Shown: positions 2,339 through 50,269 of the stretch, piece by piece
Layout: every line of letters begins with the position of its first letter
How positions within the stretch are numbered: the first letter of the stretch is position 1
Origin: Frankiaceae bacterium
Lineage (GTDB): Bacteria > Actinomycetota > Actinomycetes > BP-191
Assembly (NCBI GenBank): GCA_035536815.1
Contig: DATLNJ010000055.1
Coordinates: 923 to 64,922 of the forward strand
Length of the DNA stretch: 64,000 bases
Direction: 5' to 3'
Program-made: the position numbers and the translations under genes
Notes under the pieces: model-generated
Databases searched by the model: none
Seen by the model: only the letters and a program-made list of their open reading frames with translations
What the model was told of the DNA's origin: nothing

Positions 2339-3706
2339 ATGCCCACCAGTCGTGTCGCGCTCCTCGCGCTCCTCGCCGTCGCGGCCGTCGGCCACGCGCC
2401 GCTCGCCGCCGCCGCGCCGCCCAGCACACCCACCGCCGTCGTCGCGATCGTGGACACCGGCATCGACCCGTACCACCCGGCGTTCAAGGACACCTCGCCG
2501 CGGGCGTACCGGCACCCGTCGACCTACCTGCCCGGGTACCCGCGCGACGCCGTCGCGCTGCGGCTCGGGAAGTCGTTCGCCGCGGACTGCGCGCGCATCT
2601 GGCGGCACGTCCGGGCGGGCAAGCTCTACTGGTTCCCAGGCACCAAGATCGTCGGCGCGTACTCGACCGACCTGGTGCAGAAGGACACCGCCTGCAAGCA
2701 GCCCGCGACCTACGACGTGCTCGGGCACGGCACCATGACCGCCTCGCGCGCCGCCGGCAACCGCTACGGCGCCTGCCCCGCGTGCCGCATCGTGGCCGTG
2801 CAGTTCCAGTACGACTACGGCCTCGTCAACAGCAGGGAGGCCGAGACGTCCGCGGTGGCCGCCGTGAGCTGGCCGGCCGCGAACGCCTCGTGGATCGACG
2901 CGCAGTCGAACTCGTGGGGCCCGCTGCCGGCGTACGACCCGACGGGCACCGCGGGGCTGTTCGCCGAGGGCGCCGCGCTCACCCGGGCGGTCGAGGCGGC
3001 GTCGCGCAAGCACCTGACGTTCTGGGCGACCGGCAACGGCCTGGGAAACTTCGGCGGCGTCCTCGGGCAGCCGACGACCGTCATCGCCCACTACACGCCG
3101 TCCGCGATCCGGGTCGGCGGGCACGACTCGGGCCAGGTCACGCTCTGGCCCGGCCTCTCCCCGCACTTCGTCGGCGACGCGTGCGACAACTGGGCCGCCG
3201 TCGCCGGCACCGCCAGGTACGAGGAGCGCGCCGGCGGCGGCACGTCGGCCGCGACGCCGTACGTCGCCGGCGGGGCGGCGGCGGCGTTGCTGCACGCCAG
3301 GACGCTCACCCGCGACACCCGGACCGGCGTGCGCGGCGACGTCGTCGCGAAGGGCCGCCGGACGAAGGCGGGCCCGCTCGCCGACGGCGTGCTGACGCTG
3401 GCCGAGTGGCGGACGGTGGCGGAACGGACCGCGACCGCGCGCCCGACGGCGCAGCCCGAGGACGGGCCGCCGTGCGACGTGGCGAGCCCGTACGCGCCGC
3501 TGCCCGTGCGGTGGGCGGACGTGCCGGCCGCCGCGCCGGCGTACCCGCTGGTCGGCTGGGGCGCCGTCGACCGGGCCGCCGTGGCGCGGGCCCGCGCGGT
3601 GCTCGCCGGGACGGTGCCGCTGCCCGCGCGGGCCGAGGAGGAGACGTTCTTCGCCGCCGACCGGCAGGTGCGCGAGGCGCTGCACACGGTCTACCGGGGC
3701 GCCTGA
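2339..3706 (+). CDS. secreted S8 (subtilisin-like) serine peptidase
   Basis: ATG at 2339 with a signal-like MPTSRVALLALLAVAAVGHAPLAAA. Asp motif VAIVDTGID, His motif GHGTMTAS, Ser motif GGTSAATPYVAG. Confidence 0.85.
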   Translation: MPTSRVALLALLAVAAVGHAPLAAAAPPSTPTAVVAIVDTGIDPYHPAFKDTSPRAYRHPSTYLPGYPRDAVALRLGKSFAADCARIWRHVRAGKLYWFPGTKIVGAYSTDLVQKDTACKQPATYDVLGHGTMTASRAAGNRYGACPACRIVAVQFQYDYGLVNSREAETSAVAAVSWPAANASWIDAQSNSWGPLPAYDPTGTAGLFAEGAALTRAVEAASRKHLTFWATGNGLGNFGGVLGQPTTVIAHYTPSAIRVGGHDSGQVTLWPGLSPHFVGDACDNWAAVAGTARYEERAGGGTSAATPYVAGGAAAALLHARTLTRDTRTGVRGDVVAKGRRTKAGPLADGVLTLAEWRTVAERTATARPTAQPEDGPPCDVASPYAPLPVRWADVPAAAPAYPLVGWGAVDRAAVARARAVLAGTVPLPARAEEETFFAADRQVREALHTVYRGA

Positions 3707-3770
3707 GCCGGTCCGCGCCGCGCGCCGCCGAGGGCGGCCCGATCCGGGCAATCCGGATGAACGGCTGCCC

Positions 3771-3809
3771 GGTGACCCTCTGTGGCTCTACTGTGTTCGG
3801 ACCGTCACC
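3771..3809 (+). promoter_or_regulatory. conserved leader inverted repeat GGTGAC-N27-GTCACC upstream of fibre gene 1
   Basis: Arms at 3771-3776 and 3804-3809, immediately 5' of the GGGAG RBS and the ATG at 3822. The same element precedes the paralogue at 6783-6821. Confidence 0.4.
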
Positions 3810-3821
3810 AGGGAGCCTTCG

Positions 3822-6749
3822 ATGCCCACTGCTCTCGGCCGTTTCGTCGTGCCTGCGATCGCGGTTGCCGCGGTCGCGCTGGGCACGCAGGCCGTCGTCG
3901 CCACGCCTACTGTGCCCGCGGCGTCGTCGCCGCAGGCCGTCGCGCCGTACGCCACGGTGTCGACCGGCACGAAGGCGGTGTTCGTGCCGGTGACGCAGCG
4001 CCGGGTGCTGAGCACGACGTCGATCTCGCCGACGTCGCCGCGCCGGGTGACGGTGGCCGGGGTGGCGGGGGTGCCGACGGATGCGCTGGCGGTGGTGGTG
4101 AACGTCGCCGCGGTGAAGCCGGCGAAGGCGGGTTTCCTGGTGGCGTACCCGAGCGGGGCGTCGCGGCCGCCGACGGTGTTCACGCTGACGTACGCCGCCG
4201 GGCAGGTCGACGAGAGCGTGGCGACGGTCAAGGTCGGCTCGCTGCGGCAGATCGTGGTCTACGCGTCGACGACGGCGCCGGTGGTGGTGGACGTGGTCGG
4301 CTACTACGTCAACCACAACCACGACGACGCGTACCTGACGAAGGCGCAGGCGCAGGGGCGGACCGCCGCCAACGCGTTCCTCTGCCCGACCGGGTCGCTC
4401 ATCAAGTCGGTCGCGGCGGACGGCGCGACGACCTGCGTGCAGGACGCGACCGGCCCGGTCAGCGGCGTCGGCGCGGGTCTGCTGCTCGACAACGGCGTGC
4501 TGACCGCGGAGCAGCGCCGCAGCGCGCCGAACGCGTTCACCTGCCCGGCGGGGCAGTACCTGCGCTCGGTCGCCGCGGACGGCACGCCGACCTGCGTCGT
4601 GGACGCGACGGGCGGCGGCGGCGGGTTCTCGATCGGCGAGGGCCTGCTGCTGGCCGACGGCGTGCTGTCGGCGGAGCAGGGCCGCAGCGCCACGAACGCG
4701 TTCACCTGCCAGACCGGGCAGGTGCTGCGTGCGGTCGCGAAGGACGGCGCGCCGACCTGCGTCGTCGACAAGGACACCGACACCACGTACTCGGCGGGCT
4801 TCGGGATGCTGCTCGTCGGCAACGTGTTCTCCGCCGAGCAGGGGCGCAGCGCGGTGAACGCGTTCACCTGCCCGGCGGGTCAGTACCTGCAGGCGGTGGC
4901 GAAGGACGGCGCGCCGACCTGCGTCGCGGACAAGGACACCGACACGAACACGACGTACGGCGCGGGCTTCGGCCTGCTGCTGACGGACGGGGTGTTCTCG
5001 GCGGAGCAGGGGCGGAGCGCGGCGAACGCGTTCACCTGCGCGGTCGGGCAGTACCTGCAGTCGGTGGCGAAGGACGGCGCGCCGGTGTGCGCGCTCGACA
5101 AGGACACCAACACGACGTACAGCGCGGGGGTCGGCCTGCTGCTCGCGAACGGCGTGTTCTCCGCCGACCGGAGCGCGGCCAACGCGTACACCTGCCCGAC
5201 CGGTCAGTACCTCCAGGCCGTCGCGGCGAACGGCGCGCCGACCTGCGCCGTCGAGCGGGACACGACGTACGCGGCCGGCGCGGGCCTGTCGCTGGCGAAC
5301 GGCACCTTCACCGCCGAGCAGCGGCGCAGCGTGCAGAACGCGTTCACCTGCCCGCCCGGGCAGTACCTGCGGGTGGTCGCGGCCGACGGCACGCCGACCT
5401 GCGCGGCGGACGTGGACACGAACACGACGTACTCCGCCGGCTTCGGGCTGCTGCTGGCCAACGGCGTCTTCTCGGCCGAGCAGGGCCGTAGCGCGGCCAA
5501 CGCGTTCACCTGCCCGGCCGGCCAGTACCTGCAGGTCGTGGCTTCGAACGGCGCCCCGACCTGCGCGGCGGACCGCGACACCGACACGAACACGACGTAC
5601 GAGGCCGGCCTCGGCCTGCTCCTCGAGGGCAACGTGTTCAGCGCCGAGCAGTCGCGCGCGACGAAGTTCCCGTTCTTCTGCGAGCCGGGCACCTTCATGC
5701 GCGAGGTCGCCAACGACGGCTTCACGACGTGCGACGCCGACCAGACGGGGCCGACGTACACGCCGGGATTCGGTATCGGCATCGACGGGACCACGATCTC
5801 CGCGCAGCAGGGGCGCAGCGCGGCCGGCGCGTTCACCTGCCCGGCCGGGCAGTACCTGCGGCACATCGCCGCCGACGGCGCGCCGACCTGCGTCGCCGAC
5901 GCGGACACCAACACGACGTACTCCGCCGGCTCCGGCCTGGCGCTGACCGGGACCACGTTCTCGCTCGCCGAGGGCACCAGCATCGTCCGCGTGAAGGGCG
6001 ACTCGGCCGACGCCGTGGCGAACGGCACCCGGCTGCGGTCCGCGATCGGCGCGCTGCCGTTCGCCGCCACGATGGCCCGCCCGATCGTCGTCGTGCTGTC
6101 GCCGGGGACGTACGAGCTCGCCGCGCAGACGAACCTGGTCATCCCGCCCTACGTGACGCTGGCCGGGTCGGGCCGGGAGGCGACCGTGCTCGTCGGGTCG
6201 TACGGCGCGGGCAGCGCGGGGCTGATCGAGCTGGGCAACGGCTCGGCGCTCGCGTCGCTCACGGTCAAGAACTCCGCCGGCGTCAACGGCGCGGTGGCGC
6301 CCGTCGTCGTGAACGGCGGGACGTCGCGGGTCTTCGACGTCGTCGGGACCGCGACCGCCACGGCCGCCGGCCCCACGGCGTTCGGCCTGGTGGTGTTCAG
6401 CGGCGGCACCGTGGTCGTCGAGCGGTCGACGTTCACCGCCACCGGTCCGAGCAGCGCTTACGGGCTCTACGCCGTCGCGGCGGTGCTGCGCGGCACCGGT
6501 GTCGAGGCGACCGCGACCAGCGGGACCGGCGCCGCGTACGGCGCGGCCGCGGGCTCCGCCGGCATCGTGGAGCTGTCCGGCGGCTCCCTCAAGGCGGCGA
6601 GCACGTCCACCGGCACCCCGTACGTCGCCGCCGAGATCGGCGGGTCGGACATCGTCCGGGTCGCGCACACGAAGCTCACCGGCGGGCTCCTCGGCACGCC
6701 CACGTGCGTCGGCGCGTACGACGAGGCGTTCGCGCCGCGGACCTGCTGA
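3822..6749 (+). CDS. secreted repeat protein (fibre/adhesin-like), paralogue 1, 975 aa
   Basis: Signal peptide MPTALGRFVVPAIAVAAVALGTQAVVA. An N-terminal beta-rich module is followed by 10 Cys-loop repeats (FTCPAGQYLxxVAxDGxPTC) alternating with TTYSAGxGLLLxNGVFSAEQGRS. The Gly/Ala/Thr-rich C-terminal module is beta-helix-like. GC3-rich codon usage. Confidence 0.85.
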   Translation: MPTALGRFVVPAIAVAAVALGTQAVVATPTVPAASSPQAVAPYATVSTGTKAVFVPVTQRRVLSTTSISPTSPRRVTVAGVAGVPTDALAVVVNVAAVKPAKAGFLVAYPSGASRPPTVFTLTYAAGQVDESVATVKVGSLRQIVVYASTTAPVVVDVVGYYVNHNHDDAYLTKAQAQGRTAANAFLCPTGSLIKSVAADGATTCVQDATGPVSGVGAGLLLDNGVLTAEQRRSAPNAFTCPAGQYLRSVAADGTPTCVVDATGGGGGFSIGEGLLLADGVLSAEQGRSATNAFTCQTGQVLRAVAKDGAPTCVVDKDTDTTYSAGFGMLLVGNVFSAEQGRSAVNAFTCPAGQYLQAVAKDGAPTCVADKDTDTNTTYGAGFGLLLTDGVFSAEQGRSAANAFTCAVGQYLQSVAKDGAPVCALDKDTNTTYSAGVGLLLANGVFSADRSAANAYTCPTGQYLQAVAANGAPTCAVERDTTYAAGAGLSLANGTFTAEQRRSVQNAFTCPPGQYLRVVAADGTPTCAADVDTNTTYSAGFGLLLANGVFSAEQGRSAANAFTCPAGQYLQVVASNGAPTCAADRDTDTNTTYEAGLGLLLEGNVFSAEQSRATKFPFFCEPGTFMREVANDGFTTCDADQTGPTYTPGFGIGIDGTTISAQQGRSAAGAFTCPAGQYLRHIAADGAPTCVADADTNTTYSAGSGLALTGTTFSLAEGTSIVRVKGDSADAVANGTRLRSAIGALPFAATMARPIVVVLSPGTYELAAQTNLVIPPYVTLAGSGREATVLVGSYGAGSAGLIELGNGSALASLTVKNSAGVNGAVAPVVVNGGTSRVFDVVGTATATAAGPTAFGLVVFSGGTVVVERSTFTATGPSSAYGLYAVAAVLRGTGVEATATSGTGAAYGAAAGSAGIVELSGGSLKAASTSTGTPYVAAEIGGSDIVRVAHTKLTGGLLGTPTCVGAYDEAFAPRTC
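4332..5975 (+). repeat. in-frame tandem coding repeats (~135-141 bp unit, 10 copies) inside fibre gene 1
   Basis: Ten occurrences of the C-x16-C module and the TTYSAG/GLLL module, counted in the translation. Boundaries are approximate. Confidence 0.8.
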
Positions 6750-6782
6750 CGCGAGGCGGGCATTTCCGTCGTTTCCCCGTCT

Positions 6783-6821
6783 GGTGACCGTCCGTGGCTC
6801 TACTGTGTGCGGACCGTCACC
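6783..6821 (+). promoter_or_regulatory. conserved leader inverted repeat GGTGAC-N27-GTCACC upstream of fibre gene 2
   Basis: The extended arms GGTGACCGTCCG / CGGACCGTCACC pair at 11 of 12 positions. The shared core gtggctctactgtgt(t/g)cggaccgtcacc is present in both copies. Confidence 0.4.
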
Positions 6822-6833
6822 GAGGGAGTCTCG

Positions 6834-9563
6834 ATGCCCATTGCTCTCGGCCGTTTCGTCGTGCCTGTGATCGCGGTTGCCGCGGTCGCGTTGGGCACGC
6901 AGGCCGTTGTCGCCACGCCTACCGTTCCGGCGGCGTCGTCGCCGCAGGCGGTGGCGCCGTTCGCCACGGTGTCGACCGGCACGAAGGCGGTGTTCGTGCC
7001 GGTGACGCAGCGCCGGGTGCTGAGCACGACGTCGATCTCGCCGACGGCGCCGCGCAAGGTGACGGTGGCGGGGGTGGCGGGGGTGCCGGCGGACGCGACC
7101 GCGGTGGTGGTGAACGTCGCGGCGGTGAAGCCGGCGAAGGCGGGCTTTCTGGTGGCGTACCCGTCGGGGACGTCGCGGCCGGCGACGGTGTTCACGCTGA
7201 CGTACGCGGCTGGGCAGGTCGACGAGAGCGTCGCGACGGTGAAGGTCGGGTCGTTGCGGCAGATCGTCGTCTACGCGTCGACGACGGCGCCGGTGGTGGT
7301 GGACGTGGTCGGCTACTACGTGAACCACAACCACGACGACGCGTATCTGACGAAGGCGCAGGCGCAGGGCCGCACCGCCGCCAACTCGTTCCTCTGCCCG
7401 ACGGGCTCGCTCATCAAGTCGGTCGCGGCCGACGGCGCGACGACCTGCGTGCAGGACGCCACCGGTCCGGTGAGCTCGGTGGGTGGCGGGCTGCTGCTCG
7501 ACAACGGGGTGTTGAGCGGGCAGGGCCGGAGCGCGGCGAACGCGTTCACCTGCCCCGCGGGGCAGTACCTGCGCTCAGTCGCCGCGGACGGCACCCCGAC
7601 CTGCGACGCGGACCAGCTCGGCGAGGCCGGCACGACGTACTCGGCGGGCTTCGGGATGCTGCTGGTCGGCAACGTGTTCTCGGCGGAGCAGGGGCGCAGC
7701 GCGGTCAACGCGTTCACCTGCCCGGCCGGCCAGTACCTCCAGGCGGTCGCCGCCAACGGCGCGCCGACGTGCGTGACGGACAAGGACACCGACACCGACA
7801 CGAATACGACGTACGGCGCGGGCTTCGGGCTGCTGCTGACGGACGGGGTGTTCTCGGCGGAGCAGGGTCGCAGCGCGGCGAGCGCGTTCACCTGCGCGGT
7901 GGGCCAGTACCTCCAGTCGGTGGCCGCTAACGGCGCCCCGACCTGCGCCCTCGACAAGGACACCAACACGACCTACAGCGCGGGCGTCGGCCTGTTGCTG
8001 AACAACGGCGTGTTCTCCGCCGACCGCAGCGCGATGAACGCCTACGCCTGCCCGACGGGCTACTACCTCCAGGCGATCGCGCCCAACGGCGCCCCGACCT
8101 GCGGCCTCGAGAGGGACACCAACACCACCTACAGTGCGGGCGTAGGGCTGCTGCTGAGCAACGGCGTCTTCTCCGCCGACCGCAGTGCCGTCAGCGCGTA
8201 CACCTGCCCGGCGGGTCAGTACCTGCAGGCGGTCGCCGCCAACGGCGCCCCGACCTGCGTGACCGACAAGGACACGACGTACGCCGCGGGCCCGGGCCTG
8301 TCGCTGGCGAACGGCACGTTCACCGCGGAGCAGCGGCGCAGCGTGCAGAACGCGTTCACCTGCCCGCCGGGTCAGTACCTGCGGGTCGTCGCGGCGGACG
8401 GCACGCCGACCTGCGCGGCCGACATGGACACCGACACGAACACGACGTACTCGGCCGGGTTCGGCCTGCTGCTGGCGAACGGCGTCTTCTCGGCGCAGCA
8501 GGGGCGCAGCGCGGCCAACGCGTTCACCTGCGGCATCGGCGAGTTCCTGCGCTCGGTCGCCGCCGACGGGACGCCGACCTGTGCCATCGACAAGGACACG
8601 ACGTACACCGCCGGCTCCGGCATCTCGATCACCGGCAGCACGATCTCCGCGCAGCAGTCGCGGACGGCGGCGAACGCGTTCACCTGCCCGGCCGGCCAGG
8701 CGCTGCGGGTCGTGGGCGCCGACGGCGCCCCGACCTGCGTGGCGGTGCCGGCGTACACGGCGGGTCCGGGCCTGACGCTGAACGGCAGCACGTTCAGCTC
8801 GTCGTACGGGCCGACCGTGATCCCGATCCGCGCGGACGGCACGCCCGCGCAGAACGGCACGGCGCTCCGCAACGCGATGACCGCGGTGACCGGCGCCACC
8901 GAGCAGACTCCGTACGTCCTGGCGCTGGCGCCGGGCACCTACGACCTCGGCGCCGGCTCCAGCCTCGCGGCGCTGACCATGAAGCCGTACGTCTCGGTCG
9001 TCGGCGCGGGCCGCGGGTTCACGACGATCACGGGAGGCGTCGTCAGCCAGTCCGGCGGCCTCGTCAACCTCGGCAACAACACGACGCTCTCCGGCGTCAC
9101 GGTGCGCAACGCGGTCCCGACCGGGGTGAGCTGGGCGACGGCGATCATGTCCAACGGCGCCAACACCGCCCGGCTGCTCGACGTGCACGGGTACGCGTCG
9201 CAAGACGGCGGCGAGACGTACGGGCTGCTCGCGTTCGCCGGCAGCAACATCTCGGTCGAGAACTCACAGTTCACCGTGGTCAACCCGACCGCGACCGGCA
9301 CCGGCATCTACTCGGTCACGAACGCCACGGTGCGGGCCCGCAACGTCGAGGTCAGCCACGGCGCGGTCAGTGGCTGGGCGCTGCGCGTCTCCAACGCCTC
9401 GCGCATCGAGTTCGCCGACGGTTACGCCAACGGCGCGGTCCACCGTGCCACCCCCGACTCGGTCGTCCACCTCATGCACAGCAAGGTCGACGGCGCCGTC
9501 ACGGGCGGGGTGCAGTGCTTCGGGACCTTCACCTCGGCGATGGCGGCCGCGACCTGCGCGTGA
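6834..9563 (+). CDS. secreted repeat protein (fibre/adhesin-like), paralogue 2, 909 aa
   Basis: ATG at 6834 is positionally equivalent to 3822 (GGGAG RBS). The first ~190 aa are nearly identical to paralogue 1. It has 9 Cys-loop repeats and a diverged beta-helix-like C-terminal module. Confidence 0.85.
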   Translation: MPIALGRFVVPVIAVAAVALGTQAVVATPTVPAASSPQAVAPFATVSTGTKAVFVPVTQRRVLSTTSISPTAPRKVTVAGVAGVPADATAVVVNVAAVKPAKAGFLVAYPSGTSRPATVFTLTYAAGQVDESVATVKVGSLRQIVVYASTTAPVVVDVVGYYVNHNHDDAYLTKAQAQGRTAANSFLCPTGSLIKSVAADGATTCVQDATGPVSSVGGGLLLDNGVLSGQGRSAANAFTCPAGQYLRSVAADGTPTCDADQLGEAGTTYSAGFGMLLVGNVFSAEQGRSAVNAFTCPAGQYLQAVAANGAPTCVTDKDTDTDTNTTYGAGFGLLLTDGVFSAEQGRSAASAFTCAVGQYLQSVAANGAPTCALDKDTNTTYSAGVGLLLNNGVFSADRSAMNAYACPTGYYLQAIAPNGAPTCGLERDTNTTYSAGVGLLLSNGVFSADRSAVSAYTCPAGQYLQAVAANGAPTCVTDKDTTYAAGPGLSLANGTFTAEQRRSVQNAFTCPPGQYLRVVAADGTPTCAADMDTDTNTTYSAGFGLLLANGVFSAQQGRSAANAFTCGIGEFLRSVAADGTPTCAIDKDTTYTAGSGISITGSTISAQQSRTAANAFTCPAGQALRVVGADGAPTCVAVPAYTAGPGLTLNGSTFSSSYGPTVIPIRADGTPAQNGTALRNAMTAVTGATEQTPYVLALAPGTYDLGAGSSLAALTMKPYVSVVGAGRGFTTITGGVVSQSGGLVNLGNNTTLSGVTVRNAVPTGVSWATAIMSNGANTARLLDVHGYASQDGGETYGLLAFAGSNISVENSQFTVVNPTATGTGIYSVTNATVRARNVEVSHGAVSGWALRVSNASRIEFADGYANGAVHRATPDSVVHLMHSKVDGAVTGGVQCFGTFTSAMAAATCA
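7344..8805 (+). repeat. in-frame tandem coding repeats (9 copies) inside fibre gene 2
   Basis: Nine C-x16-C modules counted in the translation. Boundaries are approximate. Confidence 0.8.
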
Positions 9564-19864: not shown

Positions 19865-20050
19865 CTCCGCGAGCTCGCGCCGACGCAGGCGCACGAGCTT
19901 GATTGCTTCGTTCTCCGCGTGGTCGAACCCGGCCCGCAGTGCGCGCTGCCGATCGGGCGCCAGAGACGCGAGCTCGGCCTGAGCTCGTTCGATCTCCGCC
20001 TGCAATGCTTCGGCGTTCGCCACCGCCGCGGCTCGTTCCGAACCGGTCAC
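19859..20050 (-). CDS. 63-aa coiled-coil protein translationally coupled to the deaminase gene
   Basis: GTG at 20050 overlaps the upstream TGA (GTGA), and GGGAGG lies 6 nt upstream. Helical heptad-like AAVANAEALQAEIERAQAELASL. Confidence 0.55.
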   Translation of the reverse strand: MTGSERAAAVANAEALQAEIERAQAELASLAPDRQRALRAGFDHAENEAIKLVRLRRRELAES

Positions 20051-21672
20051 GACGTGCCTCCCTTGGGTCGCGTACGCTGCGCCGGCGACGTGGGGGAAGA
20101 CCGACGGGACGTCGTGCGTCGTGTTGCCGACGATGGCGTCCCAGCCGCACCGGTGCTCACCTTAGCCATGTTGTCCTGGCGGTGTGACAGATTCGGGGGA
20201 CGCCCCGCGGAGCGACTGGCCGTGAAGGCGCCGAGAGCACTCAGTTCGCGGACCGCAACACCGTGGGGCTCCATGAACGGGTCGACCTTCGGGATGGCTG
20301 AGGCCCGTTCGGCTTCGCCCCACGGGCGTCTCGCTCCGGTGACGTCCTTGCGGTCGACCGTCACCGAGAACAGCGCGGCGTAGCGACGCGGGGCGATGCC
20401 GGTGAAGGGGTGGAACGACGCGCCCACCGCGGCGCCATACATCGACTCCGCCCGGCTCTTCGGGTAGGGCGCGAGGTACGTCACAGTCAGGCCGAGCGCC
20501 ACAAGATGCCGCGCGCAGTGGTGGCACGGAAAGGCCGTGACGAACATCGTCGTCCCCGCGATAGCCGCCCGACCGCGCAGCGCAGCCAGCAGCGCGTTCA
20601 TCTCGGCATGGACCGGTCTCTGGAACTCGATCAGCCCGCGGAGTCGCGACTGACGAAGCGGTCCGTTCAGCAACTCGTTCGCGAACTCGTCAGGGTCGGC
20701 GCCGAGGGCGGCTCGCGCGCGGTCGGCGAGCACGTCCGGCGGAAGCGACGCGAGCGTGTCGACGAGCAGCTCGGTGATGTCGATCAGGCTTGCGTCGAAA
20801 GTCGGAGCCGCACCGGCCTCAGGATGCGCGTTGTGTCCAAGCCCGACGACGTCGCCTGCCGCGGTTACCAGCGCGGCGCCCACCTTCAAACCGAGTTCGG
20901 ATGACCGCGTGCTCGCGATCTCCGCGACACTCATGCTGAACTCGGCGACGGTCGGCTGGCGGGCCCGCGGGCTGTCGAACAACAGGTCGACCACGCTCGT
21001 CACCTGCTGGGGCACATCGCGTTCGAGGTCGATGAAGACGTCCGCCATCGGAAACGCGAGGAGTGTGTTCTGGCCGAGTTCGTCGCGTTCGCGCAGGTCC
21101 CGCTCGATCAGCCTGGAGACGATCGAGCCGACATCTTGCGACGAGGCGCGCCGAAGCTTGATCTTGGCGTTCAGCTCCGTGGTCCGTCTCTCGATGCTTG
21201 CCTGTAACGAAACGACCACGAAGTGGTCGCCGTAGAGCCGGCGCAGATGGGTGATCTCGGCGGGACGCTTCAAGGAGTCGAGCAGATACGCGGTACGGGG
21301 CAGCGGGACACTCGCAGCGGCAGCGTCATCCTCGATGCCGCGCGCCGCGTTGCCCAGGCGCCGGATGCCCCTCATCGCCGCGACGCCAAGCAGCGCGACT
21401 GCGGAGCCGGTCTTCGATTCGTTGCAGAGGCGGTCGCCCTCGTCCATCAGCGCAGCGACTCGGTCCTCCTCGTGCCGCGTCGGGACGTCCTCGCCACGAC
21501 GCAACGCCTCGTTGCGGAGAAGGTCACTCAACTTTACGTCGTGGACTGCGTAGCGATACGAGGTGAGCGCTGCCCTCAGCGCGTCTTTGAACTCCTCGTC
21601 GGGCGTGCCGACCGGACGCACGACGCCGAACACCAGTTCCGGCCCAACGTCGGCGGTCGTCCCCGCTTCCAC
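20047..21672 (-). CDS. two-domain deaminase: degenerate P-loop-kinase-like N-domain + cytidine/dCMP-deaminase zinc domain (AvcD / anti-phage dCTP deaminase-like)
   Basis: N-terminus PELVFGVVRPVGT (Walker-A-like, no Lys). Deaminase signature HAEMNAL ... FPCHHCARHL. At 541 aa it is similar in size to the defence deaminases as I recall them. GC is locally reduced. Confidence 0.8.
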   Translation of the reverse strand: MEAGTTADVGPELVFGVVRPVGTPDEEFKDALRAALTSYRYAVHDVKLSDLLRNEALRRGEDVPTRHEEDRVAALMDEGDRLCNESKTGSAVALLGVAAMRGIRRLGNAARGIEDDAAAASVPLPRTAYLLDSLKRPAEITHLRRLYGDHFVVVSLQASIERRTTELNAKIKLRRASSQDVGSIVSRLIERDLRERDELGQNTLLAFPMADVFIDLERDVPQQVTSVVDLLFDSPRARQPTVAEFSMSVAEIASTRSSELGLKVGAALVTAAGDVVGLGHNAHPEAGAAPTFDASLIDITELLVDTLASLPPDVLADRARAALGADPDEFANELLNGPLRQSRLRGLIEFQRPVHAEMNALLAALRGRAAIAGTTMFVTAFPCHHCARHLVALGLTVTYLAPYPKSRAESMYGAAVGASFHPFTGIAPRRYAALFSVTVDRKDVTGARRPWGEAERASAIPKVDPFMEPHGVAVRELSALGAFTASRSAGRPPNLSHRQDNMAKVSTGAAGTPSSATRRTTSRRSSPTSPAQRTRPKGGTS

Positions 21673-21756
21673 GCGCCCCCCTGATTTCGCGGCTCAGTCC
21701 AGAAAGGAAAGCACGGTCGCACTGCGGTCGACCGTATTTGTGCGCGTGTCGGAACG

Positions 21757-22677
21757 TCAGCTCAGCGTCTTCGGCAGCTTCTGCTTGACGGTCAGCACCG
21801 GCGCGAACAGGTCGCCGACCTCCTCGGCCCGCTTCAGCGCCTCGTGCGCTTCGAACGTGATCGACGCCACGTCGTCCGTCTCCGCGCAGTGCGCGACCTC
21901 GTCCCACGTCACCGGCATCGACACGGTCGGCCGCGACTTCGCGCGCAGCGAGTACACGCAGGACGTCGTCTTGCTGTCGACGTTCTGGCTCCAGTCCACC
22001 AGGATCTTGCCGACCCGCAGCTCCTTCTTCTGCCGCGAGACGACGAGGTCCGGGTCCTCCTTCTCCAGCAGCAGGGCGACGTTCTTCGCGAACGGCGTCG
22101 TGGTGTCGTACGTCACGGACGGCTGGTTCAGCGGGACGTAGACCTGCAGGCCCTTGCTGCCGGAGACCTTCGCGTAGCAGTCGAGGCCGTTGCGGTCGAA
22201 CAGCTCCTTGAGCCGCAGCCCGACGACGCAGCACTCGTGCAGGTCGGCGGGCGCGCCGGGGTCGAGGTCGAAGACGACCATCGTCGGCTTCTGCGGCGTC
22301 TTGGCCAGCGCCATCGTCGTGTGCAGCTCGAGGTCCGCGAGGTTCGCGACCCAGACGAGCGCGGCGACGCCGTCGATGACGACGTAGTCGATGTCGCGGT
22401 CGTTGCTGTCGCTGTAGATCGGCGTCGTCTTGATCCAGTCCGGGCGGTGCTTCGGCGCCTGCTTCTCGAAGAAGAACGGCTGGTCCACGCCGTTCGGGTA
22501 GCGCTTCAACGTCAGCGGCCGGCCCTTGAGGTGGGGGAGCAGGACCGGCGCGATCCTCGAGTAGTAGTCGATGACCTCGGCCTTGGTGAACCCGACCTCC
22601 GGGTACAGGACCTTGTCGAGGTTCGACAGCGTGAGCTGCTTGCCCGCAACGGTGACGGCGACCTTCGACTCGGCCAT
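21757..22677 (-). CDS. ligD: LigD polymerase/primase domain protein (NHEJ)
   Basis: ATG at 22677 overlaps the upstream TGA (ATGA). KQLTLSNLDKVLYPEVGFTKAEVIDYY...RYPNG...FFEK...DLDP...SGSKGLQVYVPL are LigD-Pol hallmarks. Confidence 0.9.
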   Translation of the reverse strand: MAESKVAVTVAGKQLTLSNLDKVLYPEVGFTKAEVIDYYSRIAPVLLPHLKGRPLTLKRYPNGVDQPFFFEKQAPKHRPDWIKTTPIYSDSNDRDIDYVVIDGVAALVWVANLADLELHTTMALAKTPQKPTMVVFDLDPGAPADLHECCVVGLRLKELFDRNGLDCYAKVSGSKGLQVYVPLNQPSVTYDTTTPFAKNVALLLEKEDPDLVVSRQKKELRVGKILVDWSQNVDSKTTSCVYSLRAKSRPTVSMPVTWDEVAHCAETDDVASITFEAHEALKRAEEVGDLFAPVLTVKQKLPKTLS

Positions 22678-24119
22678 CAGGCGGTCTCCTCGCGGACGAC
22701 GTCGGTCGCGTGCTTGTCGTCGCGCAGCCCCTTGTACGACGGGTGCCGCAGCTTGCCGTCGCGGGTCCACTCGGCGAACTCCACCTCGACCACGAGCGTC
22801 GGCTCGGCGTAGGTCGACTTCTTGGCGTACGCCGTCGGGACCTTGTCCACGAACGGGCTCTCCTTGCGCGCCAGCGGCTTCAGCGTCTTCTCCAGGTCGA
22901 GCAGCGTCTTGCCGGTGAAGCCGGTGCCGACGTGGCCGGCGTAGCGCAGCCCGGTGTCGTCGTAGTAGCCGACGAGCAGGCTGCCGAGGTGACCCGCGCG
23001 GGCTCCCTCGCCCTTCGTCCAGCCGCCGACGACCAGCTCCTGGCGGCGGATGTTCTTCAGCTTGCGCCAGTGGTCGACGCGCTTGCCCGGGTGGTACGCG
23101 CCGTCGAGGCGCTTGGCCATGATCCCCTCGAAGCCGCGCTCGATGCCGGCCGCCTGTACGGCCGCGCCCTCGCCGGGGAAGTACGGCGGCGTCTGCCACG
23201 ACGGGCCGTTGAGGTCTAGCGCTTCGAGCAGCACGCGGCGTTCGCGGTACGGCAGCTTCGTGACGTCGCGGCCGTCCACGTAGAGCAGGTCGAAGACGAG
23301 GAAGACGACCGGGTACGTCTTCGCGGCGCGCTTCACCGCGTCGCCGGTGAGCTTCATCCGCTGCTGGAGCAGGCCGAAGTCGCTGCGGCCGTCCGCGTCG
23401 AACACCACCAGCTCGCCGTCGAGCACCAGCCGGGTGCTGCCGACCGCCTTGCCCAGCTCGATCAGCTCCGGGTACGAGCCGGTGATGTCGAGCAGGTTGC
23501 GGCTCTGCGCCGTCGCGCGCCCGCCCTCGACATAGACGATCGCGCGGACGCCGTCCCACTTGAACTCGAAGCCCCACTCCTCCGGCTTGGCCGGCAGGGC
23601 CGACCCGGTGGTCGCGAGCATCGGTACGACCTTCGCCGGCATCGGCGCGAAGTCCGGGTCGGTCGGCGGTGTCATGCGGCGGACCATCCAGTTCTTGCCC
23701 TCCGTCTGGAACAGCACGTACTCGCCCTCGACCCGCTTGCCGTGCAGGACGACCTTGATCTTGCGGTCCTCCCACTCCTCGACCTCGTACGTGCCCTGGT
23801 CCCAGAGCATGACCTTGCCGCCGCCGTACTGGCCCTTCGGGATCTCGCCCTCGAAGTCGAAGTAGTCGAGCGGGTGGTCCTCGGTGTGTACCGCGAGGTG
23901 GTTCTCGCCGGGCGTGACAGGCAGCCCCTTCGGGACCGCCCACGACACCAGCACGCCGTCGCGTTCCAGCCGGAAGTCCCAGTGCAGCGCGGTCGCGTGG
24001 TGCTCCTGGATCACGAACCGCTGCTTCGTCCTCCGCGGCCTGCGCTTCTTCGCGCCGAACGGCTCCGGCGTCGCGCGCTCGTCGCGCATGCGTTCGTAGG
24101 TGCTGAGCTTCCCTGGCAC
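22677..24119 (-). CDS. ligD: LigD phosphoesterase + ATP-dependent DNA ligase domains (NHEJ)
   Basis: PE domain FVIQEHHATALHWDFRLE...GGG. Ligase adenylation motif FEFKWDGVRA, plus later motifs EGIMAKR and WRKLK. Confidence 0.9.
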   Translation of the reverse strand: MPGKLSTYERMRDERATPEPFGAKKRRPRRTKQRFVIQEHHATALHWDFRLERDGVLVSWAVPKGLPVTPGENHLAVHTEDHPLDYFDFEGEIPKGQYGGGKVMLWDQGTYEVEEWEDRKIKVVLHGKRVEGEYVLFQTEGKNWMVRRMTPPTDPDFAPMPAKVVPMLATTGSALPAKPEEWGFEFKWDGVRAIVYVEGGRATAQSRNLLDITGSYPELIELGKAVGSTRLVLDGELVVFDADGRSDFGLLQQRMKLTGDAVKRAAKTYPVVFLVFDLLYVDGRDVTKLPYRERRVLLEALDLNGPSWQTPPYFPGEGAAVQAAGIERGFEGIMAKRLDGAYHPGKRVDHWRKLKNIRRQELVVGGWTKGEGARAGHLGSLLVGYYDDTGLRYAGHVGTGFTGKTLLDLEKTLKPLARKESPFVDKVPTAYAKKSTYAEPTLVVEVEFAEWTRDGKLRHPSYKGLRDDKHATDVVREETA

Positions 24120-36038: not shown

Positions 36039-36500
36039 GTGGCGGACCCGGCGGACCCGGCGGACCCGGCCGTCCCGGCGGCGGAGGCGGCCGCGATCCG
36101 GCGCAGCCGGTGGGTGAACCCGCTGTTCCTCCAGCCGCTCACGCTGGCGGTCGCGTTCGTCCTGTGGGACGACGTCGCCACCGCTGCGTCCAGCACCCGC
36201 GCGGCCGCGCTCGTCGTCGCGGCGGTCGCGGCGGCCGGCGCGGTCCCCGCCGGGTACCGCGGGCAGTACCGCACGCACGAGAACGGCTTCAACTCCGGGC
36301 CGCGGCTGACCCGCGGCGCCCGGTCGTCCTTCGTCTGGTTCGTGCTGGCCTCCGGCGCGGCGTACCGGATCCTGCCGCTGGTGCCGAAGGCGGCGCTGCT
36401 CGGGTTCTGCGCCGGCTACCTCCAGGGCGCCGTGGTGGGCACCCAGGTCGTGTACGCGCGGCTGCTCAGCCGCGCCCGTACGGCCGCCGGCGGGGCGTAG
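36039..36500 (+). CDS. putative membrane protein
   Basis: GTG at 36039. Several hydrophobic segments. The 5' end carries a (gcggacccg)x3 repeat at 36042-36068. Coding status is uncertain. Confidence 0.4.
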   Translation: MADPADPADPAVPAAEAAAIRRSRWVNPLFLQPLTLAVAFVLWDDVATAASSTRAAALVVAAVAAAGAVPAGYRGQYRTHENGFNSGPRLTRGARSSFVWFVLASGAAYRILPLVPKAALLGFCAGYLQGAVVGTQVVYARLLSRARTAAGGA

Positions 36501-36653
36501 CGGAAGCATTTCGTCCGGTTTGTCGTTGTACGGACTACACGCGCGCGCCATCCGGGCAGGTCCCGGTGCCGTTCGCGCCGAAGATCGCCCGCCAGGCCCG
36601 GACCGGGGACGCGCCGGGGCCCCCGTTGCACGCCGACCGAAGCAGGAGCCTTC

Positions 36654-38765
36654 GTGCGCCGAACGTCGCTCATCGCCGCCCTCGCCGCCTCTCTCGCCGT
36701 CCCGTCGTTCGCCGGCGCCGACCCCGGCAACGGGAACGGCAACGGGAACAAGCCCGAGCAGCCGGTCTTCACCGGCGCCCGCGCCGCCTCGCCGGTCGTG
36801 CTGACCGGCGCGCAGCTGCCCGACTGGTCGCGGCTGTCCGCGCAGGGCCTCGGCAAGCCGTACCCCTCGGGCGCGATGACGACCGGCGACGCGGTGCGGC
36901 ACGCGCACAACGGCCAGCTCACGGTCCCGCCGGACGTCCGCACCGGCGTACCGGTGGACGAGATCGCGGCGTACCGCTGGAACGGCAAGAAGCTGGTCGA
37001 GGTGCCGGTCCAGGTCGACCAGCGCTTCCCGTACTTCCTCGCCAACGGCCGCTCGGACTTCTCGACGTACTCCGGCACCGACGAGGAGCTGACGTACGCC
37101 TGGGCGCCGGACGCGCACGCGACCGGCGAGGAGGCGTGGAAGAAGGCGTTCGGCGACTGCTTCGCCCGCTACGCCACGCCCGAGGAGAACGCCGCCCTCC
37201 CGGCGCACGTGAACCCCGCGCCGGCCGGCTCCCTCGACACGCTCGGCTACACCGGCGCGATGCAGGACCCGGTCGCGACGCTGGACGACGACGACGAGAT
37301 CGTCGTCATGGCCCGCGACGCCGGTCCGGCCGCGCCGGCCGGCACCCCCGCGCCGAAGAACGCGATCGGCGGCGGCCAGGCGGTCAAGGTCGCCGACCCG
37401 CTCGCGCCGGGCACGACGGCGTACGTCTACCTGTTCCGCACGGCGACCGGCTCGTCGTTCACCGCCGCCACGTCGCCGTACGTCCAGCTGACGCGCGACG
37501 CGAACGCCGACGAGTGGATCGACCGGCACTCGTTCGCGCCCGACGACCCGGAGAAGCTCGGCACGAGCAACACCGGTTACGGCCCGAACCTCCCCGGCAC
37601 GGTCTGCCGCACCGACCCGCGCAACGACGGCCGCATCACGGCCCTCGACGGCGAGTCGCGCGCGTCGACGGACCGGTTCCCGCGCGACGGGATGACGGTC
37701 ACGACGCCGACGTACCAGACGACCGCGACCGGCCGCTGGATGGTCCGCGACTTCCGCGTCACCAGGCCGGGCGCCGAGTACGACTTCGGCCCGGACCTGG
37801 TCTCCCGGTGGAAGGGCCGCGCGTTCCAGCAGAGCCCGGACTCGACGATCTCGGTCGTCGGCTTCGAGGACGAGCAGGTCAACTGGGAGGCCAACTCGGT
37901 CCTCCTCGGCTGGCGGGCCGGCCCGGTCCGCGCCATCCGCGAGACCTGGGGCGCCGACTCGGGCACCAACGTCACCAAGACCGAGCTCTACTACCGCGAC
38001 GCCGACGTCTACAACTACCACGTGCGCGTGCACCCGATCCCGCCGGACGGCCTCTACACGTCCTGGAACTACAACCCGGGCGCGGTGAGCACGTACTACA
38101 CGCTGGCCCGCCCGGCCGGCGTGCCGGTGGACGGCGTCAACGACGACGGGTTCCAGATCGACGAGGACCCGGTCCGCGGCGAGCCCGCGTTCTTCGACAC
38201 CTGCGACCCGACGCTCGACGTCTGCTCCCCGCTGAACCGCCCCGAGCAGGTGGCCGGCCCGAACGGCGGCCTGGTCTACCAGTTCGAGCTGACGACGCCG
38301 CCGACCGGCCTGGCCGGCAACTTCAGCGCGGTGCCGTACTACCGCGACGACGCCTGCCTCGACGACGGCACGGGCGACACCCCTGTACCGCGGCCGTGGC
38401 CGGGCGAGGCGTCGACCGACAGCCGCGTGAAGCAGGGCTACGTCGACTACTGGAAGGCCAACGGCGCGCCGGCCGACCTCACCTACGCCGACCTGAAGTG
38501 CGACCCGGCCGCCGACCCGGCGACGACGCCGGCCTGGCAGCGGACGCCGTTCGCCGGCGCCTTCGGCCAGCACGGCCTGCACTTCTTCGTCACGCAGGAC
38601 AGCGACAACGCGTTCCTGCCGAAGCCGACGACGGAGCTCAACGGCCAGCAGTGGCGGTTCGCGGTGCCGATGGACACCGCGCGCAACGTGCTCCTCGACT
38701 ACAGCCCGAACGTCAGCGCCAAGCTGACGCCGGTCGTGACGCCGTTCGGCCTGCCCGCGCTGTAG
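36654..38765 (+). CDS. 703-aa secreted protein of unknown function
   Basis: AGGAG RBS, GTG at 36654, signal peptide MRRTSLIAALAASLAVPSFAGA, then GNGNGNGN. The sequence is complex and non-repetitive with good codon bias. I do not recognise the family. Confidence 0.8.
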   Translation: MRRTSLIAALAASLAVPSFAGADPGNGNGNGNKPEQPVFTGARAASPVVLTGAQLPDWSRLSAQGLGKPYPSGAMTTGDAVRHAHNGQLTVPPDVRTGVPVDEIAAYRWNGKKLVEVPVQVDQRFPYFLANGRSDFSTYSGTDEELTYAWAPDAHATGEEAWKKAFGDCFARYATPEENAALPAHVNPAPAGSLDTLGYTGAMQDPVATLDDDDEIVVMARDAGPAAPAGTPAPKNAIGGGQAVKVADPLAPGTTAYVYLFRTATGSSFTAATSPYVQLTRDANADEWIDRHSFAPDDPEKLGTSNTGYGPNLPGTVCRTDPRNDGRITALDGESRASTDRFPRDGMTVTTPTYQTTATGRWMVRDFRVTRPGAEYDFGPDLVSRWKGRAFQQSPDSTISVVGFEDEQVNWEANSVLLGWRAGPVRAIRETWGADSGTNVTKTELYYRDADVYNYHVRVHPIPPDGLYTSWNYNPGAVSTYYTLARPAGVPVDGVNDDGFQIDEDPVRGEPAFFDTCDPTLDVCSPLNRPEQVAGPNGGLVYQFELTTPPTGLAGNFSAVPYYRDDACLDDGTGDTPVPRPWPGEASTDSRVKQGYVDYWKANGAPADLTYADLKCDPAADPATTPAWQRTPFAGAFGQHGLHFFVTQDSDNAFLPKPTTELNGQQWRFAVPMDTARNVLLDYSPNVSAKLTPVVTPFGLPAL

Positions 38766-41354: not shown

Positions 41355-41393
41355 GCCGTACCTCCCGCGGTCCCGCTCCTCCCCCCGCCGTTC

Positions 41394-50267: not shown

Positions 50268-50269
50268 CG

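What the first reader, a model, noticed from the sequence alone, without database searches (positions are those of the whole stretch)
3771..9563. Tandem pair of giant secreted fibre-like proteins built from a composite Cys-loop / TTYSAG-GLLL repeat
Two co-oriented paralogues (975 and 909 aa) share the same layout:
- A Sec signal peptide.
- A ~150-aa beta-rich N-module (VFVPVTQRRVLSTTS...VVDVVGYYV).
- 10 versus 9 copies of a ~45-47 aa unit.
- A ~250-aa Gly/Ala/Thr-rich module that reads like a right-handed beta-helix (PGTYEL...VTLAGSGREATVL) and ends in a conserved Cys pair.

Each repeat unit is NTTYSAG-G-LLL-NGVFSAEQGRSA followed by NAFTCPxGQYLxxVAxxGxPTC. The two Cys in this unit are always 17 residues apart.

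The TYxAGxGLxL half recalls phage tail-fibre or trimeric-adhesin stalk repeats. I cannot name a family with this strict alternation with a putative disulfide-loop module. An apparently active S8 protease (2339-3706) sits directly upstream on the same strand.
Basis: partly seen in the sequence, partly recalled or inferred. Interest (0 to 1): 0.7.

Follow-up and report, generated by a model that had tools for sequence, protein, structure and literature searches.

The report
Tandem trimeric surface fibres with swappable tips
Two neighbouring genes of a soil Frankiaceae bacterium encode long secreted fibre proteins that most likely act as three-chain surface fibres, with a shared base, a previously undescribed disulfide-containing repeat stalk and two different sugar-binding tips, resembling the adhesive fibres of phages and predatory bacteria.

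Summary
ORFs 3822-6749 (975 aa) and 6834-9563 (909 aa) share one layout: signal peptide, ~125-aa beta-sandwich, 10 versus 9 C-x16-C loops in a composite repeat, then a ~260-aa module ending in a Cys pair. The unit is 52-58 aa, not 45-47.

AlphaFold2 and Foldseek show the C-module is a right-handed beta-helix, like tailspikes and pectate lyases. The hits assigned to the N-domain are homotrimeric jelly-rolls.

The case for a homotrimeric fibre is indirect:
- The N-domain occurs as exactly three tandem copies in 57 other actinobacterial exoproteins, but once per fibre chain.
- An Ilumatobacteraceae homologue joins the same N-domain and tip by a collagen triple helix.
- Elsewhere the repeat shares chains with collagen, Peptidase_S74, a UspA1 head and C1q-like tips.

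The repeat has no Pfam, NCBIfam or PDB match, yet hits 5,843 protein clusters. The locus is syntenic in Frankiaceae, with 4-10 loops, one or two fibres and zero to two S8 proteases. A and B share a 95%-identical base (recent gene conversion) but their tips are 34% identical.

Verdict: a new variant of mosaic trimeric adhesin fibres, closest in design to Bdellovibrio MAT fibres.

The parts
2339..3706 (+). Secreted S8 (subtilisin-family) protease without a pro-domain; an orthologous but facultative neighbour of the fibre genes
   Evidence: Pfam PF00082 E=4e-17. D39/H130/S303 motifs and a signal peptide. Orthologues (54-69% id) sit at the same position in L009 (one copy) and L001 (two copies), and are absent in L004 and L007.
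3789..3821 (+). Putative own promoter -10 (TACTGT, 3789-3794) and leader with RBS AGGGAG (3810-3815) of fibre A
   Evidence: The invariant alignment columns (T78, A79, T83) spell TAnnnT across 7 upstream regions from 5 genomes; sequence. Promoter function is inferred from the actinobacterial -10 consensus (own knowledge).
3822..3902 (+). Fibre A signal peptide (about aa 1-27)
   Evidence: Arg7 followed by the hydrophobic 12-mer VVPAIAVAAVAL (mean KD 2.7) and AVVA|TP; heuristic only.
3942..4361 (+). Fibre A N-terminal base domain (aa 41-180; beta-sandwich core 52-165), one copy per chain
   Evidence: AF2 pLDDT ~83-92. Foldseek hits of ~115-150 columns are to trimeric jelly-rolls. The same domain occurs as 3 tandem copies in 57 other proteins.
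4362..5966 (+). Fibre A stalk: 10 C-x16-C loops in composite 52-58-aa units, plus a terminal half-unit
   Evidence: AF2 draws each Cys loop and each TTYxAGxGLxL element as a beta-hairpin with low pLDDT.
5967..6746 (+). Fibre A tip (A-type): right-handed beta-helix ending in C962-x12-C975
   Evidence: AF2 pLDDT ~88-96. Foldseek hits: AlgE4/6, pectin methylesterases, GH87, RbmB, tailspikes. 74% identical to the tips of P0004 and P0005.
6801..6833 (+). Putative promoter -10 (TACTGT, 6801-6806) and leader with RBS GAGGGAG (6822-6828) of fibre B
6834..6914 (+). Fibre B signal peptide (about aa 1-27)
6954..7373 (+). Fibre B N-terminal base domain (aa 41-180)
   Evidence: N-part 95% identical to A; DNA 89-97% identical over 6846-7445 versus 3834-4433.
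7374..8813 (+). Fibre B stalk: 9 C-x16-C loops plus a terminal half-unit
8814..9560 (+). Fibre B tip (B-type): beta-helix ending in C895-x12-C908
   Evidence: 34% identical to the A tip, 75% to P0012, and 47-55% to the single-copy orthologues.

Best explanation
A and B are secreted proteins that each assemble into a homotrimeric cell-surface fibre with three parts.

1. **Base.** One jelly-roll domain per chain. Three chains together rebuild the three-lobed module that many other actinobacterial exoenzymes carry as three tandem copies. This module probably holds the fibre on the cell envelope non-covalently.
2. **Stalk.** It is made of 9-10 composite units. Each unit has a TTYxAGxGLxLxGxxFS hairpin, a short Q-x-R linker and a C-x16-C hairpin that is presumably disulfide-stapled. 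Stalk length is tuned by gain and loss of units.
3. **Tip.** A distal right-handed beta-helix, tailspike-like, that binds (less likely cleaves) a polysaccharide.

The two paralogues keep the same base through gene conversion but carry two old, divergent tip types. The cell therefore displays two specificities on one scaffold.

**Shown:** domain anatomy, folds of the two end modules, repeat family size, synteny, repeat-number variation, mosaic identity pattern, and a collagen-stalk homologue.

**Inferred:** trimer state, disulfides, polarity (N = base), envelope anchoring and glycan binding.
For: **Trimer state**
- The N-domain is present as exactly 3 back-to-back copies in 57 proteins and once in all 13 fibres.
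- The 3-copy protein P0060 folds with pLDDT 85.6 and pTM 0.78. It hits the single-chain C1q head, a three-jelly-roll pseudo-trimer.
- The ~120-column hits of the fibre A model are homotrimeric jelly-rolls: Bd2133 MAT tip 8ok3 (TMt 0.60), BclA, Bc2L-C-nt and the KHP40 cement protein.
- Ilumatobacteraceae locus L011 has three tandem paralogues with the same N-domain and the same tip (ending TCVGAYDENY...C), joined by a collagen GXY stalk (Pfam Collagen 3e-9).
- The composite repeat shares a chain with Collagen plus Fibrinogen_C (P0040), COLFI/Fibrinogen_C (P0018), CTHRC1_C (P0022), and Peptidase_S74 plus a UspA1 head (P0105), and with phage Collar.
- The stalk does not fold as a monomer.

**Tip**
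- It has a beta-helix fold.
- Only ~30 invariant residues remain, mostly structural.
- There are two ancient tip types.

**Base and anchor**
- The N-part is conserved and homogenised while the tips diverge.
- Partner enzymes of the triple module include sortase, mycosin-like S8, CHAP, amidase, SpoIID, M15, GH10 and GH43.

**Chromosomal, not phage**
- The locus is syntenic in 5 contig types, between a DEAD helicase and a ferritin-like/SnoaL/TetR/ACAD block.
- GC matches the flanks.
Against: - No multimer prediction or experiment was possible, so the trimer is indirect.
- I could not inspect coordinates. The pseudo-threefold packing of the triple module, and which region of the A model matched the jelly-rolls, are inferred from pTM and alignment lengths.
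- The TM-score to single-chain C1q was low (0.2).
- There was no sequence match to phage genomes or to the solved MAT fragments.
- No sortase signal or known wall-binding domain is present, so surface retention is conjecture.
- Right-handed beta-helices are often monomeric enzymes.
- The organism is an uncultured MAG, so there are no expression data.
Confidence: 0.6

Rival explanations
1. Monomeric secreted polysaccharide-active enzymes. The beta-helix is a catalytic lyase, esterase or epimerase; the repeat region is an extended spacer; the N-domain is a carbohydrate-binding module aimed at the substrate rather than the cell's own wall.
For: - The best Foldseek hits of the tip are enzymes: AlgE4/6, pectin methylesterase, GH87, RbmB, PL6.
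- The triple N-module is also fused to GH10 and GH43 enzymes.
- P0006 scores 25.5 bits on Pect-lyase_RHGA_epim.
Against: - No acidic residue on the beta-helix body is invariant across 12 orthologues.
- The Pfam hit is below its cut-off (25.5 versus 27).
- A collagen stalk in the L011 homologues forces a trimer.
- The 1-versus-3 copy-number rule is unexplained by a monomer.
Confidence: 0.15
2. A structural nap on spores or hyphae, like the BclA collagen-like filaments of the Bacillus exosporium. Its role would be surface hydrophobicity or protection rather than specific adhesion.
For: - Collagen-stalk homologues exist.
- A jelly-roll domain resembles BclA.
- The genes are chromosomal, syntenic and look housekeeping-like.
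Against: Two divergent tip types maintained side by side in two genomes, with fast tip divergence, suggest ligand specificity. In BclA the jelly-roll is the distal C-terminal domain, not the N-terminal one.
Confidence: 0.12
3. Reversed polarity. The beta-helix end sits at the cell, and the N-terminal jelly-roll trimer is the distal lectin head, as in TNF/C1q-headed fibres.
For: Known trimeric jelly-roll lectins and heads (Bc2L-C-nt, C1q, BclA, MAT TNF-like tips) are ligand-binding ends.
Against: The N-part is the conserved, homogenised end and the C-part the variable end. The same N-module is attached to dozens of unrelated enzymes, including wall enzymes. That fits a generic anchor better than a specific head.
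Confidence: 0.08
4. Remnant prophage or tailocin tail-fibre genes.
For: Fibre-like build with a tailspike-like tip. BFVD hits include phage tail fibre, tailspike and pectate-lyase proteins.
Against: - There are no phage genes nearby.
- The chromosomal slot is the same in at least 4 Frankiaceae lineages.
- GC equals the flanks.
- A Sec signal peptide is present.
- There is no tblastn hit in 50,697 phage genomes or in IMG/VR.
Confidence: 0.03

Closest known systems
Bdellovibrio bacteriovorus MAT (mosaic adhesive trimer) fibres (Caulton et al. 2024, PMC10769870)
   Same: - Same order of parts: signal peptide, conserved beta-rich N-domain of ~130 aa, long fibre, variable C-terminal tip.
- Paralogues share the fibre but carry swapped tips: Bd2133/Bd1334 are 75% identical and then diverge, and A/B are 95% and then 34%.
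- The Bd2133 tip is a Foldseek hit.
- Some composite-repeat proteins end in Peptidase_S74, like S74-type MATs.
   Different: - The host is a Gram-positive actinobacterium, not a predator.
- The N-domain is a different, actinobacterial domain, unlike the QGxLxD-type domain of most composite-repeat proteins.
- The stalk is the composite Cys-loop repeat rather than a trimeric beta-helix.
- The MAT capping-loop motif and S74 are absent.
- There is no sequence hit to the solved MAT fragments.
Phage tailspikes and pectate-lyase-superfamily depolymerases (e.g. Dettilon gp208, K2-2 TSP, P22-type)
   Same: A right-handed parallel beta-helix at the distal end of a trimeric stalk, with a glycan-recognition role.
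   Different: The gene is cellular, Sec-secreted and chromosomal. There is no particle-binding domain, no conserved catalytic acids and no sequence similarity to phage genomes.
Bacterial collagen-like fibres (BclA of Bacillus; C1q-like heads)
   Same: A trimeric stalk combined with a jelly-roll domain. Direct homologues in Ilumatobacteraceae use a collagen GXY stalk between the same end modules.
   Different: The window's proteins have no GXY run. The jelly-roll is N-terminal, and the tip is a beta-helix.
Three-repeat wall anchors (3x SLH, 3x CWB2), as an analogy for the N-domain only
   Same: Exactly three tandem copies, at either end of many unrelated exoproteins (35 C-terminal, 18 N-terminal). 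In SLH and CWB2 such triplets form a pseudo-trimer that binds a wall polymer (own knowledge).
   Different: The fold is unrelated (jelly-roll beta-sandwich). Wall binding is untested here.
Triple beta-spiral shafts (adenovirus fibre, reovirus sigma1)
   Same: The xGxGLxLxGxxFS motif resembles the shaft repeat, from memory. There are weak BFVD hits to adenovirus fibres (prob 0.44-0.60).
   Different: This was not tested rigorously. Those hits rest on the low-confidence stalk, and beta-spiral repeats lack the Cys loop.

Membership tests
MAT superfamily (Bdellovibrio) | MAT-type conserved N-terminal beta-rich domain after the signal peptide | tested here: inconclusive
   A ~125-aa beta-rich N-domain is present. 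It differs from the QGxLxD-type N-domain of most composite-repeat proteins. No Bdellovibrio N-domain sequence was available for comparison.
MAT superfamily (Bdellovibrio) | Trimerisation along the whole fibre | not testable with these tools
   Only monomer AF2 was available.
MAT superfamily (Bdellovibrio) | Mosaic, swappable C-terminal tips on a conserved fibre | tested here: met
   N-part 95% identical versus tip 34%. A-type and B-type tips recur in L009.
MAT superfamily (Bdellovibrio) | Beta-helix capping-loop motif V-G-G/N-pi-x-x-P-x-x-x-L | tested here: not met
   The regex finds none in A or B.
Peptidase_S74-terminated tail fibres | C-terminal intramolecular chaperone with the SDxxxK motif | tested here: not met
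   No Pfam PF13884 hit and no SDxxxK. It is present in distant repeat-bearing relatives.
Right-handed parallel beta-helix (pectate-lyase-like) superfamily | Beta-helix fold of the C-module | tested here: met
   AF2 pLDDT ~90. Foldseek prob ~1.0 to AlgE4/6, PME (TMt 0.47-0.53), GH87 and tailspikes. The sequence models are sub-threshold: Beta_helix E=0.79, PF12708 25.5 versus 27 bits.
Right-handed parallel beta-helix enzymes | Conserved catalytic acidic or basic residues on the helix face | tested here: inconclusive
   Across 12 orthologues only 1 Asp (in the N-cap), 3 Arg and 2 Tyr are invariant. No known active-site motif was recognised.
Bacterial collagen-like proteins | Gly-X-Y triple-helix repeats | tested here: not met
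   No run of 5 or more GXY triplets in A or B. It is met in the L011 homologues.
Trimeric autotransporter adhesins | C-terminal beta-barrel membrane anchor; YadA-type head/stalk | tested here: not met
   No Pfam hit. The protein ends in the Cys pair, and the organism is a Gram-positive lineage.
Sortase-anchored surface proteins | C-terminal LPXTG signal, hydrophobic segment and charged tail | tested here: not met
   The only regex match (LALTG, A residue 706) is internal. There is no C-terminal TM segment.
Triple beta-spiral fibres | 15-residue shaft repeat forming a trimeric beta-spiral | not testable with these tools
   A trimer model or a solved structure is needed. Only weak BFVD hits exist.
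Subtilases (S8), upstream gene | S8 domain with the Asp-His-Ser triad | tested here: met
   PF00082 E=4e-17; D39TG, H130GT, GTS303.

The most novel reading that the evidence does not exclude
The locus exposes two undescribed building blocks of bacterial surface architecture.

1. A jelly-roll domain works as a three-lobed, non-covalent envelope anchor of Actinomycetota. It is supplied either as three tandem copies on monomeric exoenzymes or as one copy on each chain of a trimer.
2. A disulfide-stapled ~55-aa composite repeat forms a new kind of trimeric stalk. It is interchangeable with collagen and is used by thousands of mosaic fibres, named so far in Actinomycetota, Myxococcota (including Bradymonadia) and Chloroflexota (Anaerolineae).

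If so, MAT-like tip-swapping adhesin fibres would be a general bacterial strategy and not a speciality of predators.
Probability: 0.35. Interest if true: 0.75.

Novelty: new variant of a known kind. Interest (0 to 1): 0.58.

Why it matters
Trimeric fibres with exchangeable tips are how phages and Bdellovibrio recognise cell surfaces. This locus suggests that non-predatory Gram-positive soil actinobacteria build the same kind of device from different parts.

- **Unmodelled family.** The stalk repeat matches 5,843 protein clusters but has no family model, no name and no structure, so a single structure would annotate thousands of proteins.
- **Candidate wall anchor.** The 1-versus-3 copy rule for the N-domain gives a testable candidate for a missing non-covalent wall-anchoring module in Actinomycetota.
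- **Natural experiment.** The A/B pair has a conserved base, variable tips and variable stalk length. It shows how adhesin specificity and reach evolve.

Tried and rejected
- **Family scans.** Pfam, NCBIfam and PHROGs scans and PDB sequence searches on A and B gave only sub-threshold noise, such as Amastin, DUF4333 and an N-acetylornithine deacetylase fragment. A repeat-unit profile and P0007 against PDB gave nothing.
- **Module searches.** Homologue searches with the C- and N-modules alone returned almost nothing. The tool appears to be length-matched. I used local jackhmmer on the proteins already fetched instead.
- **Genome survey.** With full-length A it used over-specific patterns and gave only 3 loci.
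- **Phage origin.** tblastn of the stalk against 50,697 phage genomes gave no match. IMG/VR with P0007 gave none.
- **Fold search of P0060.** Its FN3 domain swamped the search, so the fold of the triple module rests on one low-TM hit plus the hits of the fibre A model.
- **PF27501.** This newer Pfam entry is precomputed on P0007, P0013 and P0044. I rejected it as a model of the repeat because it is absent from near-pure repeat proteins.
- **Other negatives.** The listing of cluster members gave almost no taxonomy. Rfam and tRNA scans of the window were empty. The sigma-70 and terminator scan was uninformative in this 74% GC DNA. P0001 was not on record for a contig look-up.
Full report
**1. 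What is there**

The window is 72-79% GC and matches a Frankiaceae MAG (proteins VNA20_07350 and VNA20_07355). On the + strand lie three genes:
- a secreted S8 protease, 2339-3706;
- fibre A, 3822-6749, 975 aa;
- fibre B, 6834-9563, 909 aa.

A and B are 61% identical overall. Each has the following, in order:
- an N-terminal signal-like segment, with no functional sortase signal and no second TM segment;
- a beta-rich N-domain, aa ~41-180;
- 10 (A) or 9 (B) C-x16-C loops embedded in a tandem repeat with a 156-162-nt period, that is 52-58 aa per unit;
- a terminal half-unit;
- a ~260-aa C-module ending in C-x12-C.

The unit consensus across taxa is xxDxDTxTTYxAGxGLxLxGTTFSAxxxxQxRxAxxTCxAGQxLRxIAADGxPTC. 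Y, G, G, C, G and C are invariant.

**2. Known families**

None of these recognises the repeat or the N-domain:
- Pfam;
- NCBIfam;
- PHROGs;
- PDB sequences, searched with single sequences and with a 32-unit profile.

An exhaustive HMMER search of 1.84 billion representatives with the unit profile found 5,843 proteins at E<=1e-3, 2,186 at E<=1e-10 and 405 at E<=1e-30. Most match the whole unit. Some 2-4-kaa giants match only the TTYxAGxGL half. Other proteins use the Cys loop alone (P0040, P0031). The repeat is thus a large, unnamed family in which the composite form is the commonest. The taxa named by sources are:
- Frankiaceae;
- Myxococcales/Myxococcota;
- Bradymonadia;
- Anaerolineae;
- one Thermoplasmatota-binned MAG.

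**3. Structure**

*Monomer AF2 of full-length A* (16-sequence alignment):
- The N-domain (52-165) is confident, pLDDT ~90.
- The C-module (720-975) is confident, pLDDT ~90.
- The stalk has low confidence (pLDDT 25-63). Every Cys loop and every TTYxAGxGLxL element is drawn as a beta-hairpin. There is no globular fold.

*Foldseek against PDB*:
- The C-module matches right-handed beta-helices with probability ~1.0. These are AlgE4/6, pectin methylesterases (TMt up to 0.53), GH87, RbmB, PL6 and phage tailspikes.
- A second set of hits, ~115-150 columns long, matches homotrimeric jelly-rolls. These are the Bd2133 MAT tip 8ok3 (TMt 0.60), BclA, the Bc2L-C N-terminal lectin and the KHP40 cement trimer.
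- I assign the second set to the N-domain from the alignment lengths. The tool does not report query ranges.

*Foldseek against BFVD* agrees on tailspike and pectate-lyase proteins. Its long alignments to phage collagen, C1q and S74 fibres and to adenovirus fibres rest on the low-confidence stalk, so I give them little weight.

**4. Evidence that the proteins are trimers**

(a) Local jackhmmer over the fetched proteins shows a copy-number rule for the N-domain. It occurs as exactly three back-to-back copies (linkers of 0-5 aa) in 57 unrelated multidomain proteins, 35 at the C-terminus and 18 at the N-terminus. It occurs once in each of the 13 fibre proteins.

(b) A three-copy protein, P0060, folds with pLDDT 85.6 and pTM 0.78, which implies one rigid body. 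It hits the single-chain C1q head across ~411 columns, although the TM-score is low.

(c) Ilumatobacteraceae locus L011 has three tandem paralogues. Each has a signal peptide, one N-domain, a collagen Gly-X-Y stalk of different length (Pfam Collagen 3.3e-9) and a beta-helix tip. The tip ends in TCVGAYDENY...C, the same terminal motif as A's TCVGAYDEAFAPRTC. BLASTP against A gives 3e-8 for the tip, 4e-6 for the N-domain and 1e-4 for the C-end. The composite stalk is therefore interchangeable with an obligate triple helix.

(d) In other phyla the same repeat shares a chain with known trimer modules:
- Collagen plus Fibrinogen_C;
- COLFI;
- CTHRC1_C (C1q-like);
- Peptidase_S74;
- phage Collar;
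- a UspA1 head (5e-9).

**5. Evolution of the locus**

The fibre gene sits in the same chromosomal slot in several Frankiaceae lineages, between a DEAD-box helicase (- strand) and a ferritin-fold/SnoaL/DUF3107/TetR/acyl-CoA dehydrogenase block. The content of the slot varies:

| Locus | Content |
|---|---|
| Window | S8 + A (10 loops) + B (9 loops) |
| L009 | S8 + A-type (4 loops) + B-type (5 loops) |
| L001/L002 | S8 + S8 + B-type (6 loops) |
| L004-6 | B-type only (5 loops) |
| L007/8 | B-type only (7 loops) |

- The S8 genes are orthologous (54-69% identical) and distinct from the window's other S8. They are a facultative partner.
- Tips fall into two old types. A-type tips are 74-82% identical to each other. 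B-type tips are 47-75% identical to each other. A-type versus B-type is 34-38%.
- In the window the N-parts of A and B are 95% identical. DNA identity is 89-97% over 3834-4433 versus 6846-7445 and falls to 50-60% in the tips.
- In L009 the two N-parts are only 61% identical. This indicates a recent gene-conversion event in the window's genome.
- Both genes carry a conserved leader in which the invariant alignment columns spell TAnnnT ~30 nt upstream of the ATG, across 7 upstream regions. This fits separate sigma-A promoters (inference).

**6. Function**

Twelve tips share only ~30 invariant residues, mostly Gly, Leu, Val and Cys. No conserved acidic pair lies on the helix body. This favours binding over catalysis, but only weakly.

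The triple N-module is fused to many exoenzymes:
- wall-acting enzymes: class E sortase, mycosin-like S8, CHAP, amidase_2, M15 and SpoIID;
- glycosidases: GH10 and GH43.

By analogy with 3x SLH and 3x CWB2 anchors (own knowledge), I infer a non-covalent envelope anchor. That places the N-terminus at the cell and the variable tip distal, as proposed for MAT fibres (PMC10769870). Actinobacteria are known to form disulfides in exported proteins (own knowledge), and all Cys counts here are even.

**7. Comparison and verdict**

The closest known system by design is the Bdellovibrio MAT family, which has a conserved N-domain, a long trimeric fibre and swappable tips. Membership is not established for three reasons:
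- The MAT capping-loop motif and S74 are absent.
- The N-domain is a different domain.
- There is no sequence link to the solved MAT parts.

The genes are not a prophage remnant. The evidence is the synteny, a GC content matching the flanks, the signal peptide and the lack of phage hits.

I rate it a new variant of a known kind, with moderate-to-good interest. An unannotated, structure-less stalk repeat of thousands of members, a candidate new actinobacterial anchor module and a clean tip-swapping pair are all directly testable.

Noticed in passing
window 3942-4361 and 6954-7373; proteins P0026-P0109: The fibre N-domain is an unnamed ~120-aa domain (no Pfam or NCBIfam model). It occurs as exactly three tandem copies at the N- or C-terminus of 57 diverse actinobacterial exoproteins, including PD40, RCC1, CAP, FN3, S8, sortase, CHAP, amidase, SpoIID, GH10 and GH43. 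It may be a new wall-anchoring or lectin module.
   Followed up: partly
L011 3364-8593 (Ilumatobacteraceae MAG CBDDKF010000006.1): There are three tandem paralogues with near-identical N-parts, collagen GXY stalks of different length and divergent beta-helix tips. The first copy (3364-5008) is split over two frames, which could be a frameshift, a pseudogene or an assembly error.
   Followed up: partly
window 3765-3821 and 6777-6833: Both fibre genes have a near-identical ~55-nt leader. It carries a GGTGAC...GTCACC inverted repeat, a TACTGT (TAnnnT) element and a strong RBS. The TAnnnT and RBS are conserved upstream of orthologues in four other contigs. The inverted repeat is specific to the window's two copies.
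   Followed up: partly
window 3834-4433 versus 6846-7445: A gene-conversion tract. DNA is 89-97% identical between A and B across the signal peptide, N-domain and first Cys loops. It falls to 50-60% in the tips. The equivalent pair in L009 is not homogenised (61% aa identity).
   Followed up: yes
window 20047-23943 (- strand): A lower-GC patch (0.68-0.69 versus ~0.74). It holds a 728-aa ORF with a C-terminal LigD primase-polymerase domain and a 541-aa ORF with a cytidine/dCMP deaminase zinc-binding domain.
   Followed up: no
window 48531-51889: Long overlapping ORFs on both strands (1111 aa on +, 924 aa on -) have no Pfam match at 1e-5. The coding strand and identity are unresolved. The strongest negative GC skew of the window (-0.15) is here.
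   Followed up: no
window 38908-48059 (+ strand): A second, unrelated S8 protease with PKD and PPC domains lies at 38908-40980. An AdnA/AdnB-like pair of UvrD-helicase/PD-(D/E)XK nuclease genes lies at 41450-44758 and 44796-48059. An ORF ending in an Ogt (6-O-methylguanine methyltransferase) DNA-binding domain lies at 36110-39076.
   Followed up: no
proteins P0117, P0118, P0120, P0124, P0136, P0155, P0172, P0195: Giant (2,200-4,240 aa) metagenomic proteins match only the TTYxAGxGL half of the unit, in up to 40 stretches. One is labelled 'DUF2345 family' by its source. The two halves of the composite unit are therefore separable modules.
   Followed up: no
protein P0121: A 1,613-aa protein with 16 composite units is attributed to a Candidatus Thermoplasmatota archaeon MAG. 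This is either an archaeal occurrence or a binning error.
   Followed up: no
window 5940-5990 and 8790-8840 (start of the tips): An invariant 'GD', usually within (R/K)GD, immediately follows the terminal half-unit, and an invariant 'NGT.L' follows that, in all 12 Frankiaceae orthologues. Their significance is unknown.
   Followed up: no
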